Virus genome (UHGV): UHGV-1600615
Strand: one strand, 5' to 3'
Origin: a virus
Length of the DNA stretch: 16,547 bases
Positions 2,175 to 13,570 of the stretch are shown in pieces. The first letter of the stretch is position 1; every line of letters begins with the position of its first letter. Under the pieces are notes generated by a model, which saw nothing but the letters and a program-made list of their open reading frames with translations, did not search any database and was not told where the DNA came from. Both the position numbers and the translations under genes were made by a program.

Positions 2175-2692
2175 GCAAGATTGATTATCAAAAGCTTCGT
2201 GAAATCGCTGAAAAAACAAAAATTGCTGGTGAAGCACCTGTAATGCCTTTCGATCAGCGAATTAATGCGCTTAACGATTTTATGAAGCACTTTTCGCCAG
2301 ATATCGCGCTGGCATTGTTGGATGAACGGGAAAGAAACCTGCAATACATCAAAAGCCGCGACCAGGAGAACGAGGATATTGCGCTAACGGTAGGGAAGCT
2401 GCGCGTTGAGCTGGAAGCCGCAGAGAAGCGCATTGCAGAACTGGAAAGCAACGAAGTCCGTGAAGTCGGAAATCAGTTTCTTGTTGTTCGCCATCCTGGG
2501 AAAACTCCTGTCATCAAGCACTGCACTGGTGACCTGGAAGAGTTTCTGCGGAAGTTAATCGAACAAGACCCGTTAGTAACTATCGGCATCATTACGCATC
2601 GCTATTACGGGATTGGCGGTCAATGGGTTCAGGATGCAGTTGAGTATCTGCATATGATGTCTGACGCTGGCATTCGCATCAAAGGAGAGTGA
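2171..2692 (+). CDS. Ead/Ea22-like prophage protein (putative)
   Basis: 173-aa ORF starting at GTG 2171, with a perfect Shine-Dalgarno AAGGAGG 6 nt upstream and a GTGA overlap with the previous stop. The N-terminal QKLREIAEK and the coiled-coil segment ALLDE...LEAAEKRIAELE resemble the Ead/Ea22-like family common in E. coli lambdoid prophages, recalled from memory. Confidence 0.6.
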   Translation: MSKIDYQKLREIAEKTKIAGEAPVMPFDQRINALNDFMKHFSPDIALALLDERERNLQYIKSRDQENEDIALTVGKLRVELEAAEKRIAELESNEVREVGNQFLVVRHPGKTPVIKHCTGDLEEFLRKLIEQDPLVTIGIITHRYYGIGGQWVQDAVEYLHMMSDAGIRIKGE

Positions 2693-2693
2693 T

Positions 2694-2903
2694 ATGGCTA
2701 TCGCTGCAAGTTACACCATGCATCTCTATTGTGACTGCCGCCAGTGTACGGAAGGTGTATATCCAGTGCCAGACTTCGGTGAGTATATCGGTAGGTCATG
2801 GTCTGGTTGTGCAAAAGAGGCCCGTAAAGACGGGTGGCGAATAAGCGCCGACAAAACGCGTGCTTTTGCGCCCGGGCATAAAGTTTTGAGGATTAACAAA
2901 TGA
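2694..2903 (+). CDS. Small hypothetical Cys-containing protein
   Basis: 69-aa ORF with ribosome-binding site GGAG upstream. Start and stop are coupled to the neighbouring genes, including an ATGA overlap with the next gene. Contains CDCRQC ... C. Confidence 0.5.
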   Translation: MAIAASYTMHLYCDCRQCTEGVYPVPDFGEYIGRSWSGCAKEARKDGWRISADKTRAFAPGHKVLRINK

Positions 2904-3436
2904 CCACTATAACCGATAAGAAACAGTATCCCAGCGAGCAATATCTTAATGAGCTGATCACCAACATAGAGTTTGCTGCAAGGGCACCAGTTGAAGTCGT
3001 GAGAGCGATGGCAGCAGAGCTACAGAAGCGGCGCGAAGCTGATAGTGCAGAACCTGCAAGTAATCATGAAGAGTTGCCGCTTGATTATCTCCAAGGTCAA
3101 AAAGATGGTCTTGAATGGGCTGCGCAGCTTGCAGAAGCAAATCACCCACAAACTGGCGACTGGCTTTACGATGACCCGCTGGAGCTGGCTAAAGCTATCA
3201 GAAAAGGTCCTGACATGCCCGAATTCGATGGACCAACTCCGGTAACTCCGGATGGTTGGATAAGCTGTAGTGAGCGAATGCCGGATAATAATCACGACGT
3301 ACTTTTCTTCGATGTGTGGGGTTATATCCGGATGGGCTGGTTCAGTGCGGACGATCGTTCGTGGTTTACGTCGGATGATGGGTGCCGCATGGAGGTAACC
3401 CACTGGATGCCGCTACCAGAACCGCCCCAGGGGTGA
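2900..3436 (+). CDS. DUF551-domain phage protein
   Basis: 178-aa ORF. The C-terminus WISCSERMPD...VLFFDVWGY...VTHWMPLPEPP matches the DUF551 signature (ending W.PLPEPP) as recalled. Confidence 0.65.
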   Translation: MTTITDKKQYPSEQYLNELITNIEFAARAPVEVVRAMAAELQKRREADSAEPASNHEELPLDYLQGQKDGLEWAAQLAEANHPQTGDWLYDDPLELAKAIRKGPDMPEFDGPTPVTPDGWISCSERMPDNNHDVLFFDVWGYIRMGWFSADDRSWFTSDDGCRMEVTHWMPLPEPPQG

Positions 3437-3502
3437 AATGATGCTTGGCCTGAAGTATTTTATGTAATTGGTATTGCTATATTTTTATCTGGGGATAAAC
3501 GA

Positions 3503-3745
3503 ATGTTCTCTCTGATTCAACGTGGTCAGATATACACCGATAGCGCCGGCTATCCAGTAAAAATCATTCGTAGTACTGATCACTCAGTGTTCTTCAAGAG
3601 GATGGATGGCTATCCTGGAAGGGTGTGCATCAGAAAATTCAATAATTTATTCGAACACATTGATCACAGAGAATATCACCAGATCCTGGCTGAAACAGAA
3701 CAGGAGAACCATCTGAAAAAATTACGTGCCATGCAAAGGAGATAA
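3503..3745 (+). CDS. Hypothetical small phage protein
   Basis: 80-aa ORF preceded by an AT-rich intergenic region and ribosome-binding site GGGGAT. No family recognised. Confidence 0.55.
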   Translation: MFSLIQRGQIYTDSAGYPVKIIRSTDHSVFFKRMDGYPGRVCIRKFNNLFEHIDHREYHQILAETEQENHLKKLRAMQRR

Positions 3746-3777
3746 ACCGGTAAAGGTGTTCGCGATAAAGGTAAATA

Positions 3778-4119
3778 TTGATGGCTAAATCAGCAGCAGA
3801 GCGCAAAGCCGCTCAGAGAGCCAGACAAGCTGCATCTGGTGTGCGTAAGCTGGAAATTGTGCTTGATGCTCAGGAAATTGAAATGCTGGAGCGTAACTGT
3901 GCCACGCGTCGCCCCGGGCGTGCGCCTTACGAATTTGGTGAGTATATAGCGTTACTGATCCGCCAGGATGATGCACGCGTGCGCGGGCGTATAAAATCGA
4001 TCAGCAGAAAACGTTGCGGTAAGTGCGGCGGGAGAGTTCCAGTTAATTCATGCCCGTGTAATGGTGACTCGCAATGCTGGGTGACTAAAGGCTGGCATGA
4101 AACGAAATTAATAGTGTGA
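3778..4119 (+). CDS. Putative small DNA-binding regulator: ribbon-helix-helix-like N-terminus plus C-terminal Cys4 zinc-ribbon-like cluster
   Basis: 113-aa ORF; the likely start is the ATG at 3781. The N-terminal segment VRKLEIVLDAQEIEMLERN has a strand-then-helix pattern typical of ribbon-helix-helix proteins. The C-terminus carries RCGKCGG-x9-CPCNG. It is the last gene before the terminator and the packaging genes. Confidence 0.6.
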   Translation: MMAKSAAERKAAQRARQAASGVRKLEIVLDAQEIEMLERNCATRRPGRAPYEFGEYIALLIRQDDARVRGRIKSISRKRCGKCGGRVPVNSCPCNGDSQCWVTKGWHETKLIV

Positions 4120-4237: not shown

Positions 4238-4834
4238 ATGATGCCTGCTGAACCTAAAACCTATAAACGCAAATCAACGCAATTTAAGCCACTAACAGCA
4301 ATGCAGGAGGCTTATTGCCAGTCATACATCAAAACGCCTGAAAACCAGACTCAGGCAGCGATTAACGCAGGATTCTCCCCAAATACAGCGGCAGTTAAAG
4401 CCAGTGTCATGATGCGCGATGAACGCATTCAAAAACGGATTGCCGAGCTGATGGAGGAGCGCAACAAACGAATGCGCGTCAGTGCCGATTACGTTCTTAT
4501 GCGCCTGGTGGAGATCGACCAGATGGATGTGATCGACATCCTCAACGACGATGGGAGCCTTAAGCCAATCCGCGAGTGGCCGAAAATCTGGCGCACTACG
4601 CTTAGTGGCTTTGATCTGTCATCGACCATCATGAACATGAACGAGGATTCGATAGAGACAATCCTCAAAAAAATTAAATGGCCTGACAAGGTGAAGAACC
4701 TTGAGCTGATTGGTAAGCATGTTGATGTCAACGCGTTCAAAGAACGTCTGGATGTTAATGTGAATGTGACAATTGCTGATCGCATAGCAGCAGCCAGGAA
4801 GCGACTCAAAGAACGTCAGGATGGTAATCAGTGA
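4238..4834 (+). CDS. terS: Terminase small subunit (Terminase_2-type)
   Basis: LTAMQEAYCQSYIKTPENQTQAAINAGFSPNTAAVKASVMM...RVSADYVLMRLVEID matches the conserved helix-turn-helix core of Terminase_2 small subunits. The track ORF starts at TTG 4160, but that would span the terminator hairpin, so the ATG at 4238/4241 (GGTGG ribosome-binding site upstream) is preferred. The stop overlaps the next start as GTGA. Confidence 0.85.
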   Translation: MMPAEPKTYKRKSTQFKPLTAMQEAYCQSYIKTPENQTQAAINAGFSPNTAAVKASVMMRDERIQKRIAELMEERNKRMRVSADYVLMRLVEIDQMDVIDILNDDGSLKPIREWPKIWRTTLSGFDLSSTIMNMNEDSIETILKKIKWPDKVKNLELIGKHVDVNAFKERLDVNVNVTIADRIAAARKRLKERQDGNQ

Positions 4835-7293
4835 CAGATACAGCGTTATCTCCTGAAGAGCAGTTGATCGAGGATATTGCAGGGTTCACTCACGATCCGC
4901 TTGGCTATGCCCTCTATGCGTTCCCGTGGGGGGAAGAGGGGACTGAACTGGCACATGCCACCGGCCCACGTCAGTGGCAGGCTGATGCGTTCCGAGAGAT
5001 ACGTGATCACCTGCAGAATCCAGAGACGCGCTATCAGCCGCTTATGCTGGCACGCGCTTCTGGTCACGGTATTGGTAAATCCGCATTCATCTCAATGCTG
5101 ATCAACTGGGGCATGTCCACTTGCGAGGATTGTAAGGTCGTGGTGACCGCCAACACCGACAACCAGCTACGAACGAAGACCTGGCCGGAAATTATCAAGT
5201 GGTCGAACCTTGCTATCACGAAAGACTGGTTTGCCTGTACCGCTACCGCGATGTACAGCAATGATCCTGGGCACGACAAGCGGTGGCGAGCTGACGCAAT
5301 CCCCTGGTCTGAGCACAACACTGAGGCATTCGCCGGACTACACAACGAGCGCAAACGCATCATCGTGGTATTCGATGAAGCGTCGAACATTGCGGATCTG
5401 GTGTGGGAAGTTGCTGAGGGTGCGCTTACGGACGAAGACACTGAGATTATCTGGGTGGCGTTCGGAAACCCTACTCGTAACACCGGGCGTTTCCGCGAAT
5501 GTTTCCGCAAATATAAACACCGCTGGAAAACTGCGCAGATTGACAGCCGGACGGTGGAAGGCACTAACAAACAGCAGTTGCAGAAATGGGTTGATGACTA
5601 CGGGGAAGATAGCGACTTCGTTAAAATCCGTGTGCGCGGCATATTCCCTGATGCATCTGAATTGCAGTTTATCCCTACCGGTCTTACTGATGAGGCAATG
5701 AAACGGGTGGTAACCGCTGCGCAGGTGGCGCATGCTCCGGTGATAATCGGTGTTGACCCGGCATATTCAGGCGTTGATGACGCGGTGATATACCTGCGGC
5801 AGGGGCTACACAGTAAGGTGCTGTGGACTGGCAACAAGACTACCGACGATCTGATTATGGCGAAGCGTATCGCTGACTTTGAAGACCAGTATCAGGCTGA
5901 CGCAGTGTTCATCGACTTCGGTTACGGAACCGGTTTGAAGTCAATCGGTGATGGCTGGGGACGTACATGGCAACTTGTTCCGTTCGGCGGTGCGTCCACT
6001 GACCCGCAGATGCTCAACAAGCGTGGGGAGATGTTCAACTCATGCAAGACATGGCTGAGGCTGGGCGGGATGCTGGATGACCAGGAAACAGCGGACGACC
6101 TGTCGGCGGCAGAGTATAAAGTTCGAGTGGACGGTAAAATCGTTATCGAACCGAAGGAAGATATCAAGGAGCGGCTTGGGCGTTCTCCTGGTAAAGGCGA
6201 TGCGCTACTGCTGACGTTTGCTTTCCCTGTGTCAAAGCGTCTGCGAATTCCCGGGTACCCGAACATTGACCGCGATACATCGAAGCTGGATAGCAAGAAC
6301 AAGCCATTCAAATCGGTTTATTACGAGGTTGGTGGCGATAACGACAAGTTGTTGCGTGAGTCCGGATTCGATGAGTTTCCAATTATGGCTCCGCGCTGGG
6401 AAGTTAACGGCGAAGATGTTTATGGATCATCATGCCCGGGTATGCTGGCGCTTGGACCTGTTAAGGCATTGCAGCTTCTCCAGAAGCGCAAGTCGCAGTT
6501 GATTGATAAAGCCACCAATCCGCCGATGGTTGCTCCTACTTCCCTCAAGAATCAGCGCGCCTCCCTTCTTCCTGGCGACATCACGTATATCGATCAGATT
6601 ACTGGTCAGGATGGCTTCAGGCCTGCTTATCTGGTTAACCCCAGTACAGCAGATTTGGTGGCAGATATTCAGGACACTCGTCAAATCATTAACAGCGCCT
6701 ACTTTGTCGATCTGTTCATGATGTTGCAGAACATCAATACCCGCTCGATGCCTGTTGAAGCGGTGATCGAAATGAAAGAAGAAAAACTTCTGATGTTGGG
6801 GCCGGTTCTGGAGCGTCTGAACGACGAATGTCTTAATCCTCTCATTGACCGTGCTTTCTCGATGATGGTGCGTAAAAACATGCTGCCTCCACCGCCAGAT
6901 GTGATGGAAGGTATGCCACTGAAGGTCGAATACATTTCCGTCATGGCTCAGGCACGGAAGTCTATCGGCCTGTCCAGTCTGGCGTCTACGGTCAACTTCA
7001 TTGGTCAACTTGCGCAAGCGAAACCAGAAGCTCTCGACAAACTCAACGTTGATCAGGCGATCGATGCATTCGCTGATATGTCCGGAGTGTCTCCAACCGT
7101 CATTGTTCCGCAGGAACAGGTTGAGCATGCTCGCCAGCAACGGGCACAGCAACAACAGCAGCAACAAATGATGGCGATGGGGATGGCGGCGGCACAGGGT
7201 GCCAAGACGCTAAGCGAAGCTAAAACTTCGGATCCGAGTGTTTTGTCTGCTATGGCGAATGCAGTTAGTGGTCAGGGTGGGCAATCACAATGA
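4831..7293 (+). CDS. Anomalous 820-aa fusion ORF: terminase large subunit (residues ~1-472) fused in frame to the C-terminal ~340 aa of a T7-like portal (head-tail connector)
   Basis: The N-terminal part has a Walker A-like P-loop ARASGHGIGKS (~5053-5085), Walker B IIVVFDEASN (~5359-5390), a WVAFGNPT motif, and a nuclease-domain signature VIIGVDPAYSGVDDAVIYL ... SPGKGDALLLTFAF. From residue ~478 the sequence follows the C-terminal two thirds of a podovirus portal, including a Q/M/A/G-rich tail QQRAQQQQQQQMMAMGMAAAQG that resembles the T7 gp8 C-terminus as recalled. The portal N-terminal ~200 residues are absent. The junction codons RIPGYP are encoded by GAATTCCCGGGTACC (6245-6259). Confidence 0.8.
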   Translation: MTDTALSPEEQLIEDIAGFTHDPLGYALYAFPWGEEGTELAHATGPRQWQADAFREIRDHLQNPETRYQPLMLARASGHGIGKSAFISMLINWGMSTCEDCKVVVTANTDNQLRTKTWPEIIKWSNLAITKDWFACTATAMYSNDPGHDKRWRADAIPWSEHNTEAFAGLHNERKRIIVVFDEASNIADLVWEVAEGALTDEDTEIIWVAFGNPTRNTGRFRECFRKYKHRWKTAQIDSRTVEGTNKQQLQKWVDDYGEDSDFVKIRVRGIFPDASELQFIPTGLTDEAMKRVVTAAQVAHAPVIIGVDPAYSGVDDAVIYLRQGLHSKVLWTGNKTTDDLIMAKRIADFEDQYQADAVFIDFGYGTGLKSIGDGWGRTWQLVPFGGASTDPQMLNKRGEMFNSCKTWLRLGGMLDDQETADDLSAAEYKVRVDGKIVIEPKEDIKERLGRSPGKGDALLLTFAFPVSKRLRIPGYPNIDRDTSKLDSKNKPFKSVYYEVGGDNDKLLRESGFDEFPIMAPRWEVNGEDVYGSSCPGMLALGPVKALQLLQKRKSQLIDKATNPPMVAPTSLKNQRASLLPGDITYIDQITGQDGFRPAYLVNPSTADLVADIQDTRQIINSAYFVDLFMMLQNINTRSMPVEAVIEMKEEKLLMLGPVLERLNDECLNPLIDRAFSMMVRKNMLPPPPDVMEGMPLKVEYISVMAQARKSIGLSSLASTVNFIGQLAQAKPEALDKLNVDQAIDAFADMSGVSPTVIVPQEQVEHARQQRAQQQQQQQMMAMGMAAAQGAKTLSEAKTSDPSVLSAMANAVSGQGGQSQ

Positions 7294-7586
7294 CAGATTA
7301 CGAAGACGATCAACTGAAAGAAGAAAACGCCAGTAAGCAACGTGACATGGCACAGCGTGAAATTGATGACATTCGCTTTGTCATGAGCAGTGAACAGGGG
7401 CGTCGCGTTGTCTGGTCTGTGCTGGAGAAAGGCCGGGTGTTTTCCGCTATCTCACCGATGGACGCTATGGCAATGGCATTTAATGAGGGGCAACGCAATC
7501 TGGCGCTGGAACTGTTTCAGCGCGTTATGGCGCATTGCCCTGAACAGTATTTGAAGATGGCCAAAGAGGCCAGTGAACAGGAGTGA
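7290..7586 (+). CDS. Small conserved head-module protein (possibly Bbp19-like)
   Basis: 98-aa ORF whose ATGA start overlaps the previous stop. It sits between portal and scaffold, as the small gene does in BPP-1-like modules; the family assignment is from memory only. Confidence 0.55.
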   Translation: MTDYEDDQLKEENASKQRDMAQREIDDIRFVMSSEQGRRVVWSVLEKGRVFSAISPMDAMAMAFNEGQRNLALELFQRVMAHCPEQYLKMAKEASEQE

Positions 7587-8284
7587 TCATGAATTTATTT
7601 GAGCGTTTGCTGTATCGCCGTCTTTGCAATGAGCAACCAGTCGATGGTGGAGCAGCTCCGGCTGCGTCAGAACCGTCAGCGCCTGCAGGTGATACCCCTG
7701 CTCCAGTTGGTGATCCATCACAACAGGAAGGTGATAAGCCACAACCTGTTGCTGATGGCGATAAACCTGCTGATGACAAAAAGCCTGAAAACGATAAGCA
7801 GGATGAAAAAAAGGGCGGCGATAAACCAGAGGGTGCGCCTGAGAAGTACGAGTTTCAGGCTGCCGAAGGCGTAGATCTGGATACAGAAGCGTTGAAGGAA
7901 TTCGAGCCGGTGGCGCGAGAACTTAACCTGACCAACGAGCAAGCGCAAAAGCTGGTTGATGCTTATCCGAAGATTCTGGCAGGTGTTCAGCAGCGCCAGG
8001 CAGAAGCCTGGCAGAAAACAACCGAGCAGTGGGCTGCGGATGTAAAAGCTGACAAAGAAATCGGTGGCGACAAGTTGATTTCTAACCTTAGCGTCGCACA
8101 GCGTGCGCTTGACCAGTTCGGGACACCTGAACTCAAAGAATATCTGAACACCACCGGGCTGGGTAATCACCCTGATCTGGTCAAAACGTTCGTGAAAATC
8201 GGAAAGGCGATGTCTGAAGATGGCATGGTCACCGGTGGTAATGAAGGCCAGCGTAGTGCGGCCGAAGTGCTCTATGGCAAATAA
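7583..8284 (+). CDS. Putative scaffolding protein
   Basis: 233-aa ORF immediately upstream of the capsid gene, with its start coupled to the previous stop. It has a long acidic, Pro/Ala/Lys-rich low-complexity N-terminal region followed by a helical C-terminal part ending SAAEVLYGK. Confidence 0.55.
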   Translation: MIMNLFERLLYRRLCNEQPVDGGAAPAASEPSAPAGDTPAPVGDPSQQEGDKPQPVADGDKPADDKKPENDKQDEKKGGDKPEGAPEKYEFQAAEGVDLDTEALKEFEPVARELNLTNEQAQKLVDAYPKILAGVQQRQAEAWQKTTEQWAADVKADKEIGGDKLISNLSVAQRALDQFGTPELKEYLNTTGLGNHPDLVKTFVKIGKAMSEDGMVTGGNEGQRSAAEVLYGK

Positions 8285-8292
8285 GAGAGGAA

Positions 8293-9285
8293 ATGACAAT
8301 GGCTGTTAAAGGCTTAACTGCGCTAACGCTGGCTGACTGGGGTAAGCGCGTCGATCCAAACGGGAAAGTCGATAAGATTATCGAGCTTCTCGGTCAAACT
8401 AACCCGATCCTTCAGGATATGCCTTTTGTCGAAGGGAACCTTCCTACCGGACACCGAACCACCATTCGTTCTGGTTTACCTTCAGCTACCTGGCGTTTGC
8501 TGAACTATGGCGTACAGCCAAGCAAATCAACCACAGTGCAGGTAACCGATTCCGTTGGCATGCTGGAAACCTATGCTGAAGTCGATAAGTCACTGGCTGA
8601 TCTGAACGGCAACACCGCCGAATTCCGCCTGTCTGAAGACCGCGCATTTATTGAAGCGATGAATCAGCAGATGGCGCAGACGCTGTTTTATGGTGATTCC
8701 AGCGTTAACCCTCAGCAGTTTATGGGACTGTCCTCCCGCTATTCCAGCCTGTCTGCGGGTAATGCTCAGAACATCATTGATGCTGGTGGCACGGGTACAG
8801 ATAACACCTCAATCTGGTTAGTGGTGTGGGGCGAAAACACCGTGCATGGCATCTTCCCGAAAGGGCAGAAGGCTGGCATCCAGATGGAAGATAAAGGCCA
8901 GGTGACACTGGAAGATGCTAATGGCGGCAAGTACGAAGGCTATCGCACCCATTACAAATGGGATAACGGACTTGCTCTGCGTGACTGGCGTTATGTTGTT
9001 CGCATTGCAAACATCGATGTCAGCAATCTTTCAGAACCTTCCTCTGCCGCAAATATTGCGAAGTTGATGGTTAAAGCACTGCATCGAATTCCAAACCGTG
9101 GCATGGGTCGCCCGGTGTTCTACATGAACCGCACTGTAGGCCAGGCTCTTGATCTGCAATCTCTGGAGAAAACATCTCTGGCGATCAGCGTAAAAGAGAC
9201 AGAAGGCGAGTGGTGGACGTCATTCCGTGGTGTACCAATCCGTGAAACTGATGCGCTTCTGGAAACAGAAGCCCGCGTGGTGTAA
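8293..9285 (+). CDS. Major capsid protein (putative)
   Basis: 330-aa ORF with ribosome-binding site GAGAGGAAA upstream. Size and position (after the scaffold, before decoration and tail genes) fit a major capsid protein. It is followed by a stem-loop and an internal terminator. Confidence 0.7.
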   Translation: MTMAVKGLTALTLADWGKRVDPNGKVDKIIELLGQTNPILQDMPFVEGNLPTGHRTTIRSGLPSATWRLLNYGVQPSKSTTVQVTDSVGMLETYAEVDKSLADLNGNTAEFRLSEDRAFIEAMNQQMAQTLFYGDSSVNPQQFMGLSSRYSSLSAGNAQNIIDAGGTGTDNTSIWLVVWGENTVHGIFPKGQKAGIQMEDKGQVTLEDANGGKYEGYRTHYKWDNGLALRDWRYVVRIANIDVSNLSEPSSAANIAKLMVKALHRIPNRGMGRPVFYMNRTVGQALDLQSLEKTSLAISVKETEGEWWTSFRGVPIRETDALLETEARVV

Positions 9286-9301
9286 CGCCTGTTATTAACC
9301 T

Positions 9302-9321
9302 GTGGGTCGTAACAGACCCAC
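9302..9321 (+). other. Stem-loop immediately downstream of the capsid gene, with no T-tract
   Basis: Perfect 7-bp stem GTGGGTC (9302-9308) and GACCCAC (9315-9321) around loop GTAACA. It lies between the capsid stop (9285) and the ribosome-binding site of the next gene. Confidence 0.45.
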
Positions 9322-9336
9322 TAATGGAGAAAGAAG

Positions 9337-9774
9337 ATGATCACCGACAAACTGTTGATGTTCTCCGAAGCTCAGGCGGTTACGAATACCGCGGCTTCTA
9401 CTGACGTAATCGATCTCGGTCCAATTGACGGAAAACGTCGTGATATCGGCGTGGGTTACCCGCTTGAGTTTTGGGCGCTGGTTAACACAGCCGCCGCAGC
9501 AAGCGGTGATGCAACTGTAAACATCCAGTTGCAGACGAGTGAGGATAACAGCTCATGGACCACTATTTATGATAGTGGTGCACTGGCAAAGACCGCCCTG
9601 ACAGCAGGTAAACGAGTTGTTTCTGCAAAGGTGCCTGCCGGTGTTCAGCGATATCTGCGTGTTAACTACTCCGTCGCAACTGGCCCGCTAACGGCTGGCG
9701 AATTCACTGCTGGTATCAGTCTTGATGTTGATGCCAATACGCCGTATCCGATCCGCTCAAAAGTAACTGGTTAA
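9337..9774 (+). CDS. Putative capsid decoration/cement protein (possibly Bbp16-like)
   Basis: 145-aa ORF directly after the major capsid gene with ribosome-binding site GGAGAAAG. Predicted beta-rich and Ala/Thr/Gly-rich. The assignment is by synteny and family memory only. Confidence 0.4.
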   Translation: MITDKLLMFSEAQAVTNTAASTDVIDLGPIDGKRRDIGVGYPLEFWALVNTAAAASGDATVNIQLQTSEDNSSWTTIYDSGALAKTALTAGKRVVSAKVPAGVQRYLRVNYSVATGPLTAGEFTAGISLDVDANTPYPIRSKVTG

Positions 9775-9775
9775 G

Positions 9776-10120
9776 GTGATATCGATGTCAGGTGAGAAAC
9801 CAAGATACCGCGTTCTGCGCCTCTCTCATATCCATAACACACTGTGGCCGGAGGGGGCAGAAATCGAATACGAAGGTGAGCCTGGTAGCGCACTGGAACC
9901 TGTTAACGATGCAGCCAGACAGGCAAAAGCAAAAGTTGCAGGAAAGGTGTCAATGGCAGCAACCAGCACCAAAATCATCAACGATGTGTCAGATGATGGT
10001 GAACTGGATAAGCTCCGTGAAGAGTACGAATTGCTCTTTAACGAGAAGCCACACCATAACGCCAAAGCTGAAACGCTCCGCGAGAAGATCGCAGATAAGC
10101 GTAAAGAACTGGGCGTGTAA
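9776..10120 (+). CDS. Hypothetical virion-module protein
   Basis: 114-aa ORF. The likely true start is the ATG at 9785, with AAGGTG 6 nt upstream. The C-terminal half is charged and helical. It is followed by a strong terminator hairpin. Confidence 0.6.
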   Translation: MISMSGEKPRYRVLRLSHIHNTLWPEGAEIEYEGEPGSALEPVNDAARQAKAKVAGKVSMAATSTKIINDVSDDGELDKLREEYELLFNEKPHHNAKAETLREKIADKRKELGV

Positions 10121-10136
10121 GCCTCGCGGATCAGAC

Positions 10137-10158
10137 AAGGGGCTTCGGCCCCTTTATT
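10137..10158 (+). terminator. Intrinsic terminator or attenuator between head and tail gene blocks
   Basis: 7-bp stem AAGGGGC (10137-10143) and GCCCCTT (10148-10154) closing a TTCG tetraloop, followed by TTTATT. Confidence 0.7.
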
Positions 10159-10164
10159 GCAGGA

Positions 10165-10494
10165 GTGTATATGGAACTCGTAAACCTCAAAACCGGCACT
10201 GACAGCTACCAGGATGAGAGCGGAGAAACCAGAACTCGCGATGAATACCCGTGGGGGCTGTGCATCACTCTTAATAACGACACATTGAATAAGCTGAAGG
10301 CGCAACCTCAGGGCGTCGGAACAGAAGTGATGATAACTGCAAAGGCTGTTATTCGAGGCCTGTCTGCCAGAGAAACTGACGATGGTGTTAATCGCAGCGC
10401 CGATCTGCAGATCACTGATATGGCGATCGCTCCTGTTTCCGGGGATGTAGAAAAATCAGCGGCTGAAACCCTGTACGGCAATGGGGGTGAGTAA
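10165..10494 (+). CDS. Hypothetical virion protein whose C-terminus matches the scaffold C-terminus
   Basis: 109-aa track ORF. The likely start is the ATG at 10171, with AGGAG 5 nt upstream. Its C-terminus KSAAETLYGNGGE resembles the scaffold C-terminus RSAAEVLYGK. Confidence 0.6.
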   Translation: MYMELVNLKTGTDSYQDESGETRTRDEYPWGLCITLNNDTLNKLKAQPQGVGTEVMITAKAVIRGLSARETDDGVNRSADLQITDMAIAPVSGDVEKSAAETLYGNGGE

Positions 10495-11099
10495 TGGCCT
10501 CTGTAGTAGAGATCTGCAATCGTGCGCTGTCCAATATTGGCAACAGCCGCAGCATTAACAGCCTGACGGAAGCCAGCAAGGAAGCGGGGGAATGTTCGCT
10601 GCACTTTGAGGCCTGCCGTGATGCTGTGCTTTCTGATTTTGACTGGAACTTTGCTACCAAACGCGTGGCGCTTGCAAATACGAGCAATCCACCGCCTGAC
10701 TGGGAATATGCGTATCAGTACCCGTCCGATTGTCTGCGCATTACTGAAATTATGCTTCCTGGTGTACGCAATCCAACAGCAGCAATGCGCGTTCAGTACG
10801 AAGTTGGTGCAGACACCAACGGAACAGGAAAGTTGATCTACACAGACCAGCCGCAGGCATGGCTCAAGTATGTCTCTCGCGTTTCAGATGTGAACATGTT
10901 TGATGCCATTTTTATGGAGGCGTTGGCCTGGCGTCTTGCGGCAGCTATTAACATGGCGCTGACTGGGAATGCAGACCTCGGTACGTTTTCCCTCAATATG
11001 TACAATCGCGTGATTCTTAGTGCTGGCTCGCATAGCCAGAATGAATCACAGGAACCACAGCCACCGGTTGACGAGTTTACCATTGCGAGGTTGTCCTGA
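10494..11099 (+). CDS. Tail tubular protein A (T7 gp11-like adaptor/gatekeeper), putative
   Basis: 201-aa ORF with a TAATG start/stop overlap. The N-terminus ASVVEICNRALSNIGNSRSINSLTE...DFDWNF parallels T7 gp11 ([24 protein letters not shown]...RGWTFN) as recalled, and the size matches gp11 (196 aa). Confidence 0.6.
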   Translation: MASVVEICNRALSNIGNSRSINSLTEASKEAGECSLHFEACRDAVLSDFDWNFATKRVALANTSNPPPDWEYAYQYPSDCLRITEIMLPGVRNPTAAMRVQYEVGADTNGTGKLIYTDQPQAWLKYVSRVSDVNMFDAIFMEALAWRLAAAINMALTGNADLGTFSLNMYNRVILSAGSHSQNESQEPQPPVDEFTIARLS

Positions 11100-13570
11100 T
11101 GGCTATCAGTTGGATCCAGCCCAGTTTTGCCGGTGGTGAGATTGGACCGTCGTTGTACGGTCGTATCGACATGGCGAAGTACCAGGTGGCATTGCGCAAG
11201 TGCGATAACTTTATCGTGCGGCAGTATGGCGGCGTTGAGAATCGACCTGGTACGCGTTTTGTCGGTGCCGCCAAATACCCAAATCGGAAATGCCGCCTGA
11301 TCCCGTTCCAGTTCTCGACGGTTCAGACTTATGCTCTGGAGTTCGGACACCAGTACATGCGCGTTATCAAAGATGGTGCGTTGGTGCTGAACAGCAGCAA
11401 TGTTATTTATGAAATTGCCACGCCATATACTGAAGCCGATCTGTTCCGAATTAAATTCACGCAAAGCGCAGACGTGCTTACGCTGGTTCATCCGGCATAC
11501 CCGCCGAAAGAGTTGCGCCGCTATGCGCATGACAACTGGCAACTGGTTGATGTGGTAACGAAGAACGGGCCATTTGAAGATATCAATATTGACGAGTCAG
11601 TGACGGTTTATGCCAGCGCCAGCACCGGGACAATTACGTTAACGGCAAGCGCCTCTATTTTTGGCGCGGAGCAGGTAGGCAAATTGTTCTATCTGGAACA
11701 GCCTGCAGTGGATTCTGTGCCGGTATGGGAAACCAGTAAGAGTACGTCGATTGGCGATATTCGCCGTGCAGACAGTAACTACTATCGCGCCGTTACAGCA
11801 GGCAAAACAGGCACTTTGCGCCCTTCGCATACAGAAGGCACATCATGGGATGGCTGGGGCGGATCCGGTGATGATGATACCGGCATTGAGTGGGAGTATC
11901 TGCACAGTGGTTTTGGCATTGCCCGTATCTCTGCTGCAAATGGAACTACTGCAACTGCCGAGGTGATTTCCTATATCCCTTCGCAGGTAGTTGGCGAGGA
12001 TAATGCCAGCTATAAATGGGCTAAATATGCCTGGAACAGTATTAACGGTTATCCTGGCACTGTTGTTTATTATCAACAACGTCTTTACTTCGCCGCATCG
12101 ACTGCGTTCCCTCAGACTATCTGGGCCAGCCGTACTGGGGATTATAAGGATTTTGGCAAAAGCAATCCTACGCAGGATGACGACAGAATTATCTACACCT
12201 ATGCCGGGCGTCAGGTTAATGAGATCCGCCACCTGATTGATGTTGGTTCGCTGGTGGCGCTGACTTCTGGAGGTGAGTACGTCATCACCGGCGACCAGAA
12301 CAAAGTATTAACCCCATCATCATTTGCATTCAGCTCTCAGGGATCAAATGGCTCGAGCAATGTCCCACCAATTGCCGTGGCGAATATTGCTCTGTTCGTC
12401 CAGGAGAAAGGCAGTGTTGTCCGTGATCTGGCCTACTCATTCGATGTTGACGGCTATCAGGGGAACGACCTGACCATCCTTGCCAATCATCTTTTTCAGA
12501 AGCACAGCATTGTTGACTGGTGCTTCTCTATTGTCCCTTACTCCAGCGCCTTCTGCATTCGTGATGACGGTAAATTACTGGTGATGACCTATTTGCGTGA
12601 TCAGCAGGTTTTTGCATGGGCACCACAATCCAGTACCGGAAAATATGAAAGCACATGCAGTATCAGCGAAGGCAATGAAGATGCGGTGTATTTCGTCGTT
12701 AACCGAACCGTTAACGGGCAAACAGTGAGATACATCGAGCGGCTGTCCAGCCGTTTATTTACCAGCGATGAAGATGCTTTCTTTGTTGATTCTGGCCTTA
12801 GCTATGATGGAAGAAATACGTCTGACAGAACGATGACCATCACTGGTGGTTCTGGCGAATGGGATTATCGCGCGGAATATACAATCAGTGTTTCTGGTGG
12901 TGCGTACTTCACCAGTAGTGATGTCGGCGCGCAACTACAGTTCCCTTATGCCGGAACTGATCCTGATACTGGCGATGAAGTGTCAAAAGAATTACGTTGC
13001 GACATTATTTCTGTAACCAGCAATACCGCTGTAGTGGTTCGTGCCAACAGGAACGTCCCGCCATCCCTCAGGAATGCGGCCACCACGAACTGGCAGATGG
13101 CGCGCCGGACATTTGGAGGCCTGTCTCATCTTGAAGGCCAGACCGTAAACATTCTCTCTGATGCGAACGTGGAACCACAGAAAGTGGTTTCCGGAGGTGC
13201 CGTCACACTGGAATCTCCGGGGGCTGTAGTGCACATCGGCCTGCCAATAACTGCTGAATTCGAAACACTGGATATCAACATTAACGGACAGGAAACGCTG
13301 CTGGACAAAAAACAGGTGATACCCTCCGTTACTCTGGTTGTGAATGCCAGTCGCGGCATCTGGGCGACTACGCCCGGCGGTAAATGGTACGAATATCCAC
13401 AGCGTGAATTCGAGTTCTACGATGATCCTGTTGATGATGCTACCGGAAAAGTAGAAGTGAAACTGGACAGTAACTGGGGCAAAAACGGACGTGTAAAAAT
13501 CCGTCAGCTTGACCCGTTGCCGCTGTCTGTTCTTGCCGTTATTCCTCGCCTTACTGTTGGGGGATTCTGA
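11099..13570 (+). CDS. Tail tubular protein B (T7 gp12-like nozzle), putative
   Basis: 823-aa ORF with a TGATG overlap. The size is close to T7 gp12 (794 aa), the N-terminus MAISWIQPSFAGGEIGPSLYGRID parallels the gp12 N-terminus as recalled, and it directly follows the gp11-like gene. Confidence 0.6.
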   Translation: MAISWIQPSFAGGEIGPSLYGRIDMAKYQVALRKCDNFIVRQYGGVENRPGTRFVGAAKYPNRKCRLIPFQFSTVQTYALEFGHQYMRVIKDGALVLNSSNVIYEIATPYTEADLFRIKFTQSADVLTLVHPAYPPKELRRYAHDNWQLVDVVTKNGPFEDINIDESVTVYASASTGTITLTASASIFGAEQVGKLFYLEQPAVDSVPVWETSKSTSIGDIRRADSNYYRAVTAGKTGTLRPSHTEGTSWDGWGGSGDDDTGIEWEYLHSGFGIARISAANGTTATAEVISYIPSQVVGEDNASYKWAKYAWNSINGYPGTVVYYQQRLYFAASTAFPQTIWASRTGDYKDFGKSNPTQDDDRIIYTYAGRQVNEIRHLIDVGSLVALTSGGEYVITGDQNKVLTPSSFAFSSQGSNGSSNVPPIAVANIALFVQEKGSVVRDLAYSFDVDGYQGNDLTILANHLFQKHSIVDWCFSIVPYSSAFCIRDDGKLLVMTYLRDQQVFAWAPQSSTGKYESTCSISEGNEDAVYFVVNRTVNGQTVRYIERLSSRLFTSDEDAFFVDSGLSYDGRNTSDRTMTITGGSGEWDYRAEYTISVSGGAYFTSSDVGAQLQFPYAGTDPDTGDEVSKELRCDIISVTSNTAVVVRANRNVPPSLRNAATTNWQMARRTFGGLSHLEGQTVNILSDANVEPQKVVSGGAVTLESPGAVVHIGLPITAEFETLDININGQETLLDKKQVIPSVTLVVNASRGIWATTPGGKWYEYPQREFEFYDDPVDDATGKVEVKLDSNWGKNGRVKIRQLDPLPLSVLAVIPRLTVGGF

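What the first reader, a model, noticed from the sequence alone, without database searches (positions are those of the whole stretch)
8255..8284. Scaffold protein and a downstream 109-aa protein share a C-terminal SAAE(V/T)LYG motif
The putative scaffold ends QRSAAEVLYGK (8255-8281) and the ORF at 10165..10494 ends KSAAETLYGNGGE (motif at about 10456-10479). Scaffolding proteins bind coat or portal proteins through their C-termini, so a shared C-terminal peptide on two otherwise different proteins suggests both dock to the same site. The 109-aa protein may be an auxiliary scaffold, a decoration protein or a competitor.
Basis: partly seen in the sequence, partly recalled or inferred. Interest (0 to 1): 0.5.

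Follow-up and report, generated by a model that had tools for sequence, protein, structure and literature searches.

The report
Shared capsid-docking tail, scaffold and gp10
In this epsilon15/phiV10-like prophage, the scaffolding protein and a small head protein end in the same short peptide, which is kept and changes in step across related phages and is swapped together with the capsid gene, so it is most likely a common tag that docks both proteins to the inside of the capsid shell.

Summary
The scaffold (7589-8284) ends SAAEVLYGK. The 107-aa protein (10171-10494) ends SAAETLYGNGGE. That protein is a homologue of epsilon15 gp10 (Pfam PF21628), which NCBI names 'capsid staple protein'.

- **Conservation.** The core A-x-x-[L/M]-[Y/F]-[G/P/S] is found in 153 of 176 scaffold and gp10-like tails, against 16 of 3806 other ORFs.
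- **Covariation.** The two tails co-vary within each genome (z = 5-8, 0 of 20000 permutations). Examples are AFYP/AFYP in epsilon15 and RMY/RMY in CP2.
- **Protein-level selection.** Codon use shows selection on the protein, not DNA-level gene conversion.
- **A natural recombinant.** PAT1 and epsilon15 are 92-93% identical in DNA except for one swapped block. That block is the scaffold linker and motif, the capsid gene, the cement gene, gp9 and gp10. The tails therefore travel with the capsid gene, not with the portal gene.
- **More carriers.** Some relatives put the same tail on a third and a fourth small protein.

A 2022 re-analysis concluded that the 'staple' density in PDB 3J40 is really the Bbp16-like protein (here 9337-9774). 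That leaves the role of gp10 open.

Best reading (inferred, no binding data): a tethered tag that docks to the capsid protein, shared by the scaffold and an internal head protein. This is a new variant of a known principle.

The parts
7589..8284 (+). Scaffolding protein gene (231 aa from ATG 7589; the ORF is open from GTG 7583). Databases annotate it as 'protease/peptidase'.
   Evidence: It lies immediately upstream of the capsid gene. It matches PHROG 458 (E = 7.6e-111) but no Pfam or NCBIfam protease domain. The AF2 model is low-confidence: disordered residues 1-82, an all-helical core at 99-210, a disordered linker at 211-223 and a short helix at 224-229.
8219..8254 (+). Flexible Gly-rich linker of the scaffold (residues 211-222, DGMVTGGNEGQR)
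   Evidence: pLDDT is below 50. The PAT1/epsilon15 recombination breakpoint falls at the start of this linker.
8255..8281 (+). C-terminal docking motif of the scaffold, SAAEVLYGK (the finding)
   Evidence: Across distinct scaffold tails, position -4 is Ala in 83%, position -1 is Leu in 82%, position 0 is Tyr in 87% or Phe in 12%, and position +1 is Pro, Ser or Gly.
8293..9285 (+). Major capsid protein (GP7 family, HK97-like fold); inferred receptor of the motif
   Evidence: Pfam PF20911, E = 2e-149. PDB matches are 3J4U_A, 8CJZ_Y and 3J40_A. The tails are swapped together with this gene. Tail similarity between phages tracks capsid-protein identity more than portal identity.
9337..9774 (+). 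Bbp16-like cement or decoration protein; the probable true external 'staple'
   Evidence: Pfam PF21190, E = 2.8e-47. PDB matches are 3J4U_H 'cementing protein' and 8CJZ_B 'capsid decoration protein'. The re-assignment is in PMC9207676.
9776..10120 (+). gp9-like protein of unknown function; a member of the exchanged cassette
   Evidence: PHROG 590. It lies inside the block swapped between PAT1 and epsilon15.
10137..10155 (+). GC-rich hairpin (AAGGGGC-TTCG-GCCCCTT, then TATTG) between gp9-like and gp10-like; a possible partial terminator
   Evidence: The MFE and centroid fold form this 7-bp stem with a TTCG loop, but the 53-nt segment folds no better than its shuffles (-16.2 kcal/mol, z = -1.0, 31 of 200 shuffles fold as well). 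The epsilon15 record annotates a rho-independent terminator at the same position. The simple terminator scan did not flag it.
10171..10434 (+). Body of the gp10-like protein (residues 1-88)
   Evidence: Pfam PF21628, E = 1.2e-51. PDB 3J40_N, E = 2e-21. The AF2 model has mean pLDDT 77.7, with a long beta-hairpin at 53-88. No fold match was found outside the family.
10435..10455 (+). Linker of the gp10-like protein (residues 89-95, PVSGDVE, followed by K)
   Evidence: The 10-residue block 91-100 has mean pLDDT 48, and residues 92-96 are below 50.
10456..10494 (+). C-terminal motif SAAETLYG, then NGGE and the stop codon
   Evidence: Tyr is invariant in the gp10-like tails that could be anchored. 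AF2 predicts a short helix at residues 97-101.

Best explanation
The window is the head module of an epsilon15/phiV10-like podophage (Uetakevirus) prophage.

**The motif.** SAAE(V/T)LYG is a short linear docking peptide. Its family consensus is A-x-x-[L/M]-[Y/F]-[G/P/S], predicted to be one helical turn plus a hook. It sits at the end of a flexible linker.

**On the scaffold.** I infer that this peptide is the element that grips the inner face of the major capsid protein while the procapsid assembles.

**On the 107-aa protein.** The epsilon15-gp10-family protein has an unrelated beta-rich body, but it carries its own copy of the peptide, which evolves in step with the scaffold's copy. I infer that it is recruited to the same capsid-protein site. 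That would make it a component of the inside of the procapsid or head: a cargo-like internal protein, an auxiliary scaffold, or a competitor that tunes scaffold occupancy. It would not be the external 'capsid staple' it is currently annotated as.

**Shown here:**
- the motif is conserved in both families;
- it co-varies within genomes;
- selection acts at the protein level;
- it is linked in one cassette with the capsid gene;
- the tails are predicted to be flexible.

**Inferred, not shown:**
- physical binding;
- that the capsid protein is the partner;
- that the small protein sits inside the head.
For: **(1) Identity of the genes.**
- GP7 capsid protein, Bbp16-like cement protein and gp10-like protein.
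- The region is 98-99% identical in DNA to phiV10, TL-2011b and ZX5.

**(2) Both tails carry the motif in every relative examined.** Thirteen named phages were checked first, then 83 loci.

| Phage | Scaffold tail | gp10-like tail |
|---|---|---|
| epsilon15 | DLISAFYPKK | ELKDAFYPDGEDD |
| BPP-1 | GDARRLYAASNMNP | SAAQRLYGASSMSA |
| BcepC6B | ARAAKLYDKS | QRAAKFYANTPTT |
| CP2 | KPWNRMYPDM | NKYARMYADDPSMKD |

- The pattern occurs in 153 of 176 scaffold and gp10-like tails, against 16 of 3806 other ORFs.
- Of 141 full-length gp10-family representatives at 50% identity or less, 130 keep [LMFIVW][YF] in the last 16 residues. The family holds 3470 such clusters.

**(3) Covariation within genomes.**
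- Same-genome scaffold/gp10 tail pairs score 23-24; cross-genome pairs score 16-17.
- z = 8.4 with 45 capsid-protein clusters, and z = 5.3 with 15 clusters below 70% identity.
- 0 of 20000 permutations reach the observed value.

**(4) No gene conversion.** Of 308 identical residues in the matched 8-mers, 148 use the same codon. Codon usage alone predicts 161.6.

**(5) Natural recombinant.**
- PAT1 and epsilon15 are 92-93% identical in DNA over the portal gene, gp5, scaffold codons 1-216, and everything from 14 nt before the gp10 stop onwards.
- The block between these stretches is replaced (one weak 67% patch across the gp9/gp10 junction remains). It holds the scaffold linker and motif, the capsid gene, the cement gene, gp9 and gp10 with its motif.
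- Identity of the window's proteins to PAT1 / epsilon15: portal 82/82%, scaffold body 72/73%, capsid protein 84/43%.

**(6) Tails track the capsid protein, not the portal or the gp10 body.**
- Partial rank correlations of tail similarity with capsid-protein identity are 0.38-0.49.
- With portal identity they are 0.10-0.15, and with the gp10 body 0.05.

**(7) The tag is modular.**
- Small basic proteins of PHROGs 16028 and 16759 carry it in BPP-1-like phages. L158 has four carriers.
- Some gp10-like proteins have two tandem copies.

**(8) Structure predictions.** AF2 places both motifs as short helices after low-confidence linkers.

**(9) Literature.**
- The epsilon15 staple density fits the 130-aa protein, not the 111-aa gp10 (PMC9207676).
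- As a precedent, the 80alpha scaffold and SaPI1 CpmB share a C-terminal helix-and-hook that binds the N-arm of the capsid protein (PMC5644958).
Against: - There are no binding or structural data for this lineage's procapsid.
- I could not run a complex prediction.
- The swapped cassette also contains the cement protein and gp9, so the partner is not uniquely the capsid protein.
- Parallel covariation would also arise if the two tails paired with each other.
- PMC9207676 says proteomics of infectious epsilon15 particles 'putatively identified' gp10. From memory of the earlier epsilon15 literature, it was treated as a major virion protein. A highly abundant internal protein would be unusual, and a 2025 paper still calls it a staple (PMC12391199).
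- The scaffold AF2 model is of low confidence (mean pLDDT 49.5).
- The residue after the aromatic differs systematically. In scaffolds it is Pro 48%, Ser 22%, Gly 19%. In gp10-like proteins it is Gly 76%. The two tags may therefore not be equivalent.
- The pairwise correlations use non-independent pairs and carry no P-values.
Confidence: 0.6

Rival explanations
1. The small protein is the external capsid 'staple' or decoration protein, as annotated (PDB 3J40, NCBI 'capsid staple protein'). On this view its resemblance to the scaffold tail has no common function.
For: It is homologous to 3J40 chain N (E = 2e-21). The Pfam and NCBI names say so. The protein was reported in epsilon15 virions. A 2025 paper repeats the staple role.
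Against: - The authors' own AF2 re-analysis found that the 111-aa model does not fit the density and that the 130-aa protein does (PMC9207676).
- BPP-1 at 3.5 A and PDB 8CJZ show the Bbp16-like protein as the cement, and this window encodes one at 9337-9774.
- My AF2 model is a hairpin-rich fold with no PDB neighbour.
- An external protein has no reason to mimic, and co-vary with, the tail of an internal scaffold.
Confidence: 0.07
2. Both tails dock to the portal, or to another non-capsid head component, for example to nucleate assembly at the portal vertex.
For: Scaffolding proteins of other phages also recruit portals (general knowledge). In BPP-1-type genomes the gp10-like gene directly follows the portal gene; 69 of 83 loci have the gene order gp10-like, scaffold, capsid gene.
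Against: - PAT1 and epsilon15 have near-identical portal genes (92-93% DNA identity) but different tails, and the tails switch with the capsid cassette.
- Partial correlation of tail similarity with portal identity is only 0.10-0.15, against 0.38 with the capsid protein.
Confidence: 0.08
3. The two tails bind each other (like-with-like pairing). On this view the small protein is a partner, chaperone or release factor of the scaffold, and does not bind the same receptor.
For: Parallel covariation is also expected for a self-complementary interface. The systematic difference at position +1 could reflect asymmetric roles.
Against: - The scaffold family keeps the motif in phages where no gp10-like gene was seen in the head-module region examined, such as MPK9 and Nostoc JY18, so the motif has a role without gp10.
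- Up to four different proteins, and tandem copies, carry the motif, which fits one receptor with many sites better.
- The scaffold tail is swapped with the capsid gene.
Confidence: 0.12
4. The motif is a processing or degradation signal, for a phage or host protease, that removes both proteins after assembly.
For: The scaffold is annotated 'protease/peptidase'. C-terminal degrons exist in bacteria (general knowledge).
Against: - No protease domain is detectable in the scaffold, and the AF2 model is all-helical and disordered.
- No prohead protease gene is seen in the module.
- A host degron should track the host, yet two Salmonella phages, PAT1 and epsilon15, differ, and the difference tracks the capsid gene.
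- BPP-1 capsid proteins are uncleaved.
Confidence: 0.05
5. The similarity is chance or a by-product of DNA-level events: gene conversion between the two 3' ends, or constraints from the downstream ribosome-binding sites.
For: Both motifs lie just upstream of the next gene's start.
Against: - The score of 34 exceeds all 2215 unrelated tails.
- The motif is conserved across 3470 family clusters.
- Codon identity at matched residues is not above expectation: 148 observed against 161.6 expected.
- The ribosome-binding sites lie after the motif codons.
Confidence: 0.01

Closest known systems
Staphylococcal phage 80alpha scaffolding protein and SaPI1 CpmB (shared C-terminal 'RIIK' helix-and-hook; PMC5644958)
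   Same: Two otherwise different proteins end in the same roughly 16-residue C-terminal element, which binds the same site on the HK97-fold capsid protein inside the procapsid. The rest of each protein is not ordered. The tails can be exchanged. The pattern of a short helix followed by conserved hydrophobic and aromatic residues is analogous here.
   Different: - CpmB is encoded by a satellite that pirates the phage and redirects capsid size. Here both proteins belong to the same phage and are conserved together in thousands of genomes.
- The motif sequence is unrelated (A-x-x-L-Y-G versus RIIK).
- The second protein is beta-rich, not a helical dimer.
- Binding is inferred here, not seen.
Encapsulin cargo-loading peptides
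   Same: A short C-terminal peptide on a flexible Gly/Pro/Ala-rich linker targets unrelated proteins to the interior of an HK97-fold shell. Several cargo types can share one tag (my own knowledge of the field; not tested here).
   Different: Encapsulins have no scaffold and no DNA packaging. Here the tag is first of all the scaffold's own docking element. The sequences are unrelated.
Phage T4 capsid targeting sequence on internal proteins and prohead core proteins
   Same: A common short peptide directs several different proteins into the assembling prohead (my own knowledge).
   Different: The T4 sequence is N-terminal, binds the scaffolding core and is cleaved off by the prohead protease. 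Here the tag is C-terminal, no protease is evident, and the inferred target is the capsid protein.
Phage P22 scaffolding protein C-terminal helix-turn-helix
   Same: It is the C-terminal coat-binding element of an otherwise elongated, helical, partly disordered scaffold that exits intact (as cited, and my own knowledge).
   Different: P22 uses a folded helix-turn-helix domain of about 30 residues that binds by charge. It is not known to be copied onto another phage protein.
Epsilon15 gp10 'capsid staple' (PDB 3J40 chain N; Pfam PF21628)
   Same: It is a true sequence homologue of the window's 107-aa protein (E = 2e-21, about 42% identity).
   Different: The structural role attached to the name was probably mis-assigned. 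The family's location and function are therefore unknown. The tail motif described here is not part of any published description that I could find.

Membership tests
Pfam PF21628 Gp10-like (epsilon15 gp10 family) | Sequence match to the family model above the gathering score | tested here: met
   173.5 bits against a cut-off of 27, covering 98 of 98 profile positions. PDB 3J40_N, E = 2e-21.
Capsid staple / decoration protein (the functional role attached to PF21628) | Occupies the external density bridging capsomers at the two-fold axes | not testable with these tools
   Literature re-analysis assigns that density to the 130-aa Bbp16-like protein (PMC9207676). My AF2 model has no similarity to any PDB fold. 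The window has its own Bbp16-like gene.
Phage scaffolding protein (functional class) for ORF 7589-8284 | Gene adjacent to and upstream of the major capsid gene; helical or elongated, partly disordered protein | tested here: met
   AF2 gives an all-alpha core at 99-210 with a disordered N-terminus and tail, at low confidence.
Phage scaffolding protein (functional class) for ORF 7589-8284 | C-terminus binds the capsid protein; the protein is absent from mature virions | not testable with these tools
   Only indirect evidence is available: the tail is swapped with the capsid cassette and tracks capsid-protein identity.
Protease / peptidase (PHROG 458 and NCBI name for the scaffold) | A recognisable peptidase domain or catalytic motif | tested here: not met
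   No Pfam family at E <= 0.01. No NCBIfam protease model matched. The predicted fold is helical and disordered.
Shell-targeting (cargo-loading or capsid-targeting) peptide systems | A short terminal peptide on a flexible linker, present on several unrelated proteins of one element | tested here: met
   The scaffold and the gp10-like protein carry it in all loci examined. PHROG 16028 and 16759 proteins carry it in some. Tandem copies occur. The linkers have low pLDDT.
Shell-targeting (cargo-loading or capsid-targeting) peptide systems | The peptide co-evolves with, and is genetically linked to, the shell protein | tested here: met
   Within-genome covariation, cassette exchange and partial correlations.
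Shell-targeting (cargo-loading or capsid-targeting) peptide systems | The peptide physically binds the interior of the shell and is sufficient for loading | not testable with these tools
No procapsid structure of this lineage was found in the PDB searches run.
80alpha SP / SaPI1 CpmB-type competing scaffolds | The second protein is a satellite-encoded, helical, dimeric alternative scaffold that redirects capsid size | tested here: not met
   The gp10-like protein is encoded by the phage itself in all 83 loci. It is predicted to be beta-rich. No size-redirection context is present.

The most novel reading that the evidence does not exclude
The A-x-x-L-Y-G tail would be a general, modular 'load-me' tag for a very large lineage of HK97-fold podophage capsids (epsilon15, BPP-1, BcepC6B and CP2-like phages). 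The scaffold would use it to build the shell. Between one and three further proteins per phage would use the same pocket to be packed inside, among them the gp10 family of 3470 clusters, currently mis-named 'capsid staple'. This would amount to a phage counterpart of encapsulin cargo loading. It would solve the orphaned identity of epsilon15 gp10 as an abundant internal, possibly ejected, head protein. It would also give a portable peptide for loading foreign proteins into phage heads.
Probability: 0.35. Interest if true: 0.75.

Novelty: new variant of a known kind. Interest (0 to 1): 0.6.

Why it matters
- **It pinpoints the scaffold's docking element.** No procapsid structure exists for this widespread group of podophages and prophages. 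The scaffold family has 2894 clusters at 90% identity, and the gp10 family has 3470 clusters at 50% identity. This work identifies the probable capsid-docking element of the scaffold.
- **It gives epsilon15 gp10 a testable hypothesis.** The protein lost its structural assignment in 2022, yet databases still propagate the name 'capsid staple protein'.
- **It questions a second annotation.** The label 'protease/peptidase' on the scaffold has no support in this analysis.
- **It explains a mosaic boundary.** Recombination cuts just before the scaffold tail, so that the tail stays with its capsid gene.
- **It could be useful.** If the tag is sufficient for loading, it could be used to pack cargo into phage heads.

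Tried and rejected
- **Complex prediction.** I built a paired alignment of capsid protein, (GGGGS)x6 linker and scaffold tail (A5). No docking model was obtained.
- **First IMG/VR scan.** It returned only near-identical E. coli prophages. I re-ran it with BPP-1-like sequences to obtain diversity.
- **PDB sequence searches.** The scaffold sequence and the gp10 family profile found nothing beyond 3J40.
- **Apparent ClpP fusions.** Proteins P0021 and P0117 look like ClpP-gp10 fusions. They are assembly chimeras joined at the 'QITDMAI' versus ClpP 'QATDIEI' k-mer, not real fusions.
- **Terminator.** The terminator scan did not flag the hairpin at 10137-10155, and the fold z-score is unremarkable. 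I list it only as a possible partial terminator, by analogy with the epsilon15 annotation.
- **Literature.** The original epsilon15 genome and proteomics paper and the 2013 PNAS structure paper are not held. I could not verify the virion copy number of gp10. Nothing was found for '8CJZ', 'capsid staple protein', phage Bbp20, or the epsilon15 scaffold.
Full report
**What the window is.** The 16.5-kb window is the head and tail module of an epsilon15/phiV10-like podophage (genus Uetakevirus) of E. coli. Region 7290-11099 is 98-99% identical in DNA to phages vB_EcoP_ZX5, phiv142-3, TL-2011b and phiV10. The genes, are:

| Coordinates | Gene |
|---|---|
| 4831-7293 | fused terminase/portal ORF |
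| 7290-7586 | Bbp19-like protein |
| 7589-8284 | scaffold (PHROG 458; annotated 'protease'; no Pfam domain) |
| 8293-9285 | major capsid protein, GP7 family |
| 9337-9774 | Bbp16-like protein |
| 9776-10120 | gp9-like protein |
| 10171-10494 | gp10-like protein (Pfam PF21628) |
| 10494-13570 | tail tubular proteins A and B |
| from 13570 | internal virion proteins |

**The observation.**
- 8255-8281 encodes SAAEVLYGK, then a stop codon. 10456-10479 encodes SAAETLYG, followed by NGGE and a stop.
- The small protein most likely starts at ATG 10171, which has an AGGAG 5 nt upstream and matches the start of homologues. It is therefore 107 aa. The scaffold probably starts at ATG 7589 and is 231 aa.
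- The best 8-mer BLOSUM62 score between the two tails is 34. The scaffold tail reaches at most 27 against 2215 unrelated ORF tails. Only 1 of 5000 shuffles of the gp10 tail reaches 34.
- Only 3 of the 7 identical residues share a codon.

**Conservation and covariation.** I fetched the corresponding region from 12 named relatives and from 80 diverse IMG/VR contigs. I located scaffold, gp10-like and capsid genes with jackhmmer.
- In all 83 loci with both C-termini complete, both proteins end in the motif.
- Anchored on the aromatic residue, both families show Ala at -4 (83%), Leu or Met at -1 (about 92%) and Tyr at 0 (87% in scaffolds, 100% in gp10-like). Position +1 is Pro, Ser or Gly in scaffolds and Gly (76%) in gp10-like proteins. 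A median of five further residues follows.
- The i, i+3, i+4 spacing fits one face of a short helix. AF2 predicts exactly that in both proteins: gp10-like residues 97-101 and scaffold residues 224-229, each after a low-confidence linker.
- The pattern occurs in 153 of 176 scaffold and gp10-like tails, against 16 of 3806 other ORFs in the same loci.
- A profile search of 1.84 billion cluster representatives finds 3470 gp10-family clusters (1516 at E <= 1e-10). Of the 141 full-length best hits, 130 keep [LMFIVW][YF] in the last 16 residues. Four of the other 11 have an equivalent L/F-Y site a little further from the C-terminus.
- The variable positions change together within a phage: AFYP/AFYP in epsilon15, RLY.AS.M in BPP-1, RAAK[LF]Y in BcepC6B, RMY in CP2, ADLLYPS in L145, and LEERAA.ALYG in L155.
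- Same-genome tail pairs score 23-24 and cross-genome pairs 16-17. With 45 clusters defined by capsid protein, z = 8.4. With 15 clusters below 70% capsid-protein identity, z = 5.3. None of 20000 permutations reaches the observed mean.
- Codon identity at matched residues (148) is not above the expectation from codon usage (161.6). The similarity is therefore maintained by selection on the peptide, not by recent DNA conversion.

**Which partner?** A natural recombinant is informative.
- Relative to the window, PAT1 and epsilon15 are equally distant for the portal (82/82%), the scaffold body (72/73%) and tail proteins gp11-gp14.
- They differ sharply for the capsid protein (84/43%), the Bbp16-like protein (82/36%) and the gp10 body (73/47%).
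- Directly compared, PAT1 and epsilon15 are 92-93% identical in DNA through the portal gene, gp5 and scaffold codons 1-216.
- Similarity then stops, about 21-23 codons before the scaffold stop, at the start of the Gly-rich linker.
- It resumes 14 nt before the gp10 stop. Only one weak 67% patch across the gp9/gp10 junction lies in between.
- The exchanged module is therefore the scaffold linker and motif, the capsid gene, the cement gene, gp9, and gp10 with its motif.
- The tails stay with the capsid cassette while the portal stays with the backbone.
- Across all locus pairs, tail similarity follows capsid-protein identity (partial rank correlations 0.38-0.49). It follows portal identity (0.10-0.15) or the gp10 body (0.05) much less. 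These values are descriptive, because the pairs are not independent.

**The tag is modular.**
- Most of the 16 'other' ORFs that carry the pattern are small basic proteins placed right after the gp10-like gene in BPP-1-like phages. They belong to PHROG 16028 (tail KESAAEKLYPEQGNEKKKKR) and PHROG 16759 (tail REFMAEKLYPTSDKERKSKG). Locus L158 has both, so four proteins there carry the tag.
- Several gp10-like proteins carry two tandem copies (L005, L121, L149 and L150).
- The scaffold family is broader than the gp10 family: 124 phage records against 60.
- The scaffold keeps the motif in MPK9 and Nostoc phage JY18, where no gp10-like gene was seen in the head-module regions examined.
- Vibrio phage PS25B.1 has a divergent gp10-like protein with a matching tail: DRAEQLYG against the scaffold's DRVSLLYP.
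- The motif therefore looks ancestral to the scaffold and copied onto other proteins.

**What the small protein is not.**
- It is a clear homologue of epsilon15 gp10 (PDB 3J40 chain N), and NCBI names the family 'capsid staple protein'.
- The laboratory that built 3J40 later showed that the AF2 model of the 111-aa gp10 does not fit the staple density, whereas the 130-aa protein does. They concluded that the original assignment was probably wrong (PMC9207676).
- The 130-aa protein is the Bbp16-like cement protein, established at 3.5 A in BPP-1 (PMC3863775; PDB 3J4U_H and 8CJZ_B). This window encodes it at 9337-9774.
- The function and location of this large family are therefore open.

**Mechanism proposed.**
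- The scaffold consists of a disordered acidic, Pro-rich N-terminus, a helical core, a flexible linker and the tag. I propose that it grips the inner face of the capsid protein through the tag.
- The gp10-like protein carries a co-evolving copy of the tag on its own linker. I propose that it is drawn to the same pocket and so becomes part of the inside of the procapsid.
- It might stay as an internal head protein, which would be consistent with its reported detection in epsilon15 virions. It might act as a second scaffold. Or it might compete with the scaffold; the systematic Gly versus Pro/Ser difference at +1 hints at tuned affinities. These options cannot be decided here.
- The hairpin just upstream (10137-10155) is annotated as a terminator in epsilon15. 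If it terminates partially, it would lower expression relative to the capsid and cement genes. That would fit a sub-stoichiometric internal protein better than a 1:1 decoration protein. This point is weak.
- The closest precedent is the helix-and-hook shared by the 80alpha scaffold and SaPI1 CpmB, which bind the same capsid-protein site (PMC5644958). Encapsulin cargo-loading peptides and the T4 capsid-targeting sequence are functional analogues (my own knowledge).

**Rivals considered.**

| Rival | Why it ranks lower |
|---|---|
| External staple | Contradicted by the re-analysis and by the covariation |
| Portal as partner | Contradicted by the cassette |
| The two tails pairing with each other | Not excluded, but fits poorly with scaffolds that keep the motif without gp10 and with three or four carriers |
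| Protease or degradation signal | No protease domain found; the difference tracks the capsid gene, not the host |
| Chance or gene conversion | Refuted |

**Limits.**
- No binding or structural evidence exists for this lineage's procapsid.
- The complex prediction was not possible with the tools.
- The cassette also holds the cement protein and gp9.
- The scaffold model is of low confidence.
- The key proteomics papers could not be read.

**Verdict.** The feature is a new variant of a known principle: a shared docking peptide for the inside of the shell. It also bears on two database annotations, 'capsid staple protein' and 'protease', which this analysis does not support.

Noticed in passing
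window 4831-7293 (junction at 6255/6256): The 820-aa ORF is an in-frame fusion of the N-terminal ~475 residues of the large terminase with the C-terminal part of the portal (Pfam Head-tail_con profile positions 210-488). Intact relatives carry 1733 bp more at this point (for example L092, positions 2352 to 4086). The missing stretch covers the terminase C-end, the small gp3 protein and the portal N-terminal part. The prophage is defective, or the assembly has a deletion.
   Followed up: yes
window 10137-10155: A GC-rich hairpin with a TTCG loop, followed by TATTG, lies between the gp9-like stop and the gp10-like start. The epsilon15 record annotates a rho-independent terminator at the same position. 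The simple terminator scan missed it and its fold z-score is ordinary.
   Followed up: partly
window 7589-8284: The scaffold is annotated 'protease', 'peptidase' or 'endoprotease' in PHROGs, NCBI and most phage records. It has no detectable peptidase domain in Pfam or NCBIfam, and its predicted structure is helical and disordered. The name seems to descend from an old similarity to the Salmonella 'putative endoprotease' STM2005.
   Followed up: partly
L006:8339-8518, L008:8330-8497, L126:396-659, L147:8138-8413, L158:8159-8491 and 8431-8661: Small basic proteins (PHROG 16028 and 16759) directly downstream of the gp10-like gene in BPP-1-like metagenomic phages end in the same A-x-x-L-Y-[GP] motif, followed by a Lys-rich tail. 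The N-terminal parts of the PHROG 16759 members match the N-termini of larger 'virion structural proteins' (PHROGs 22033 and 25121).
   Followed up: partly
L005:8007-8375, L121, L149 and L150 (gp10-like genes): Some gp10-like proteins carry two tandem copies of the tail motif, for example RATALYGAGSEGSRINNLSNALYGGG.
   Followed up: no
scaffold and gp10-like tails of 83 loci: The residue after the aromatic differs systematically between the two families. In scaffolds it is Pro 48%, Ser 22%, Gly 19%. In gp10-like proteins it is Gly 76%, Pro 12%. In the window both are Gly.
   Followed up: no
proteins P0021 and P0117 (ENA assemblies): These apparent ClpP/gp10-like fusion proteins are chimeras. 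They are joined where gp10 'LQITDMAI' resembles the ClpP stretch 'GQATDIEI' (recalled from memory). They are assembly artefacts, not evidence of a protease link.
   Followed up: yes
L001:339-545 (epsilon15 gp3), L002:2831-3238 (Bbp22), L173-L176 small ORFs upstream of the portal gene: The small proteins encoded just upstream of the portal gene all end in TLLG[GQS]. Epsilon15 gp3 starts MCIGSKPS, which recalls T7 gp6.7 (recalled from memory; not tested here). This gene is the one lost in the window's deletion.
   Followed up: no
L004 versus L001 (PAT1 versus epsilon15): A clean mosaic replacement of the capsid cassette is seen between two Salmonella phages. Its left breakpoint lies inside the scaffold gene, about 21-23 codons before the stop. 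Its right breakpoint lies 14 nt before the gp10 stop.
   Followed up: yes
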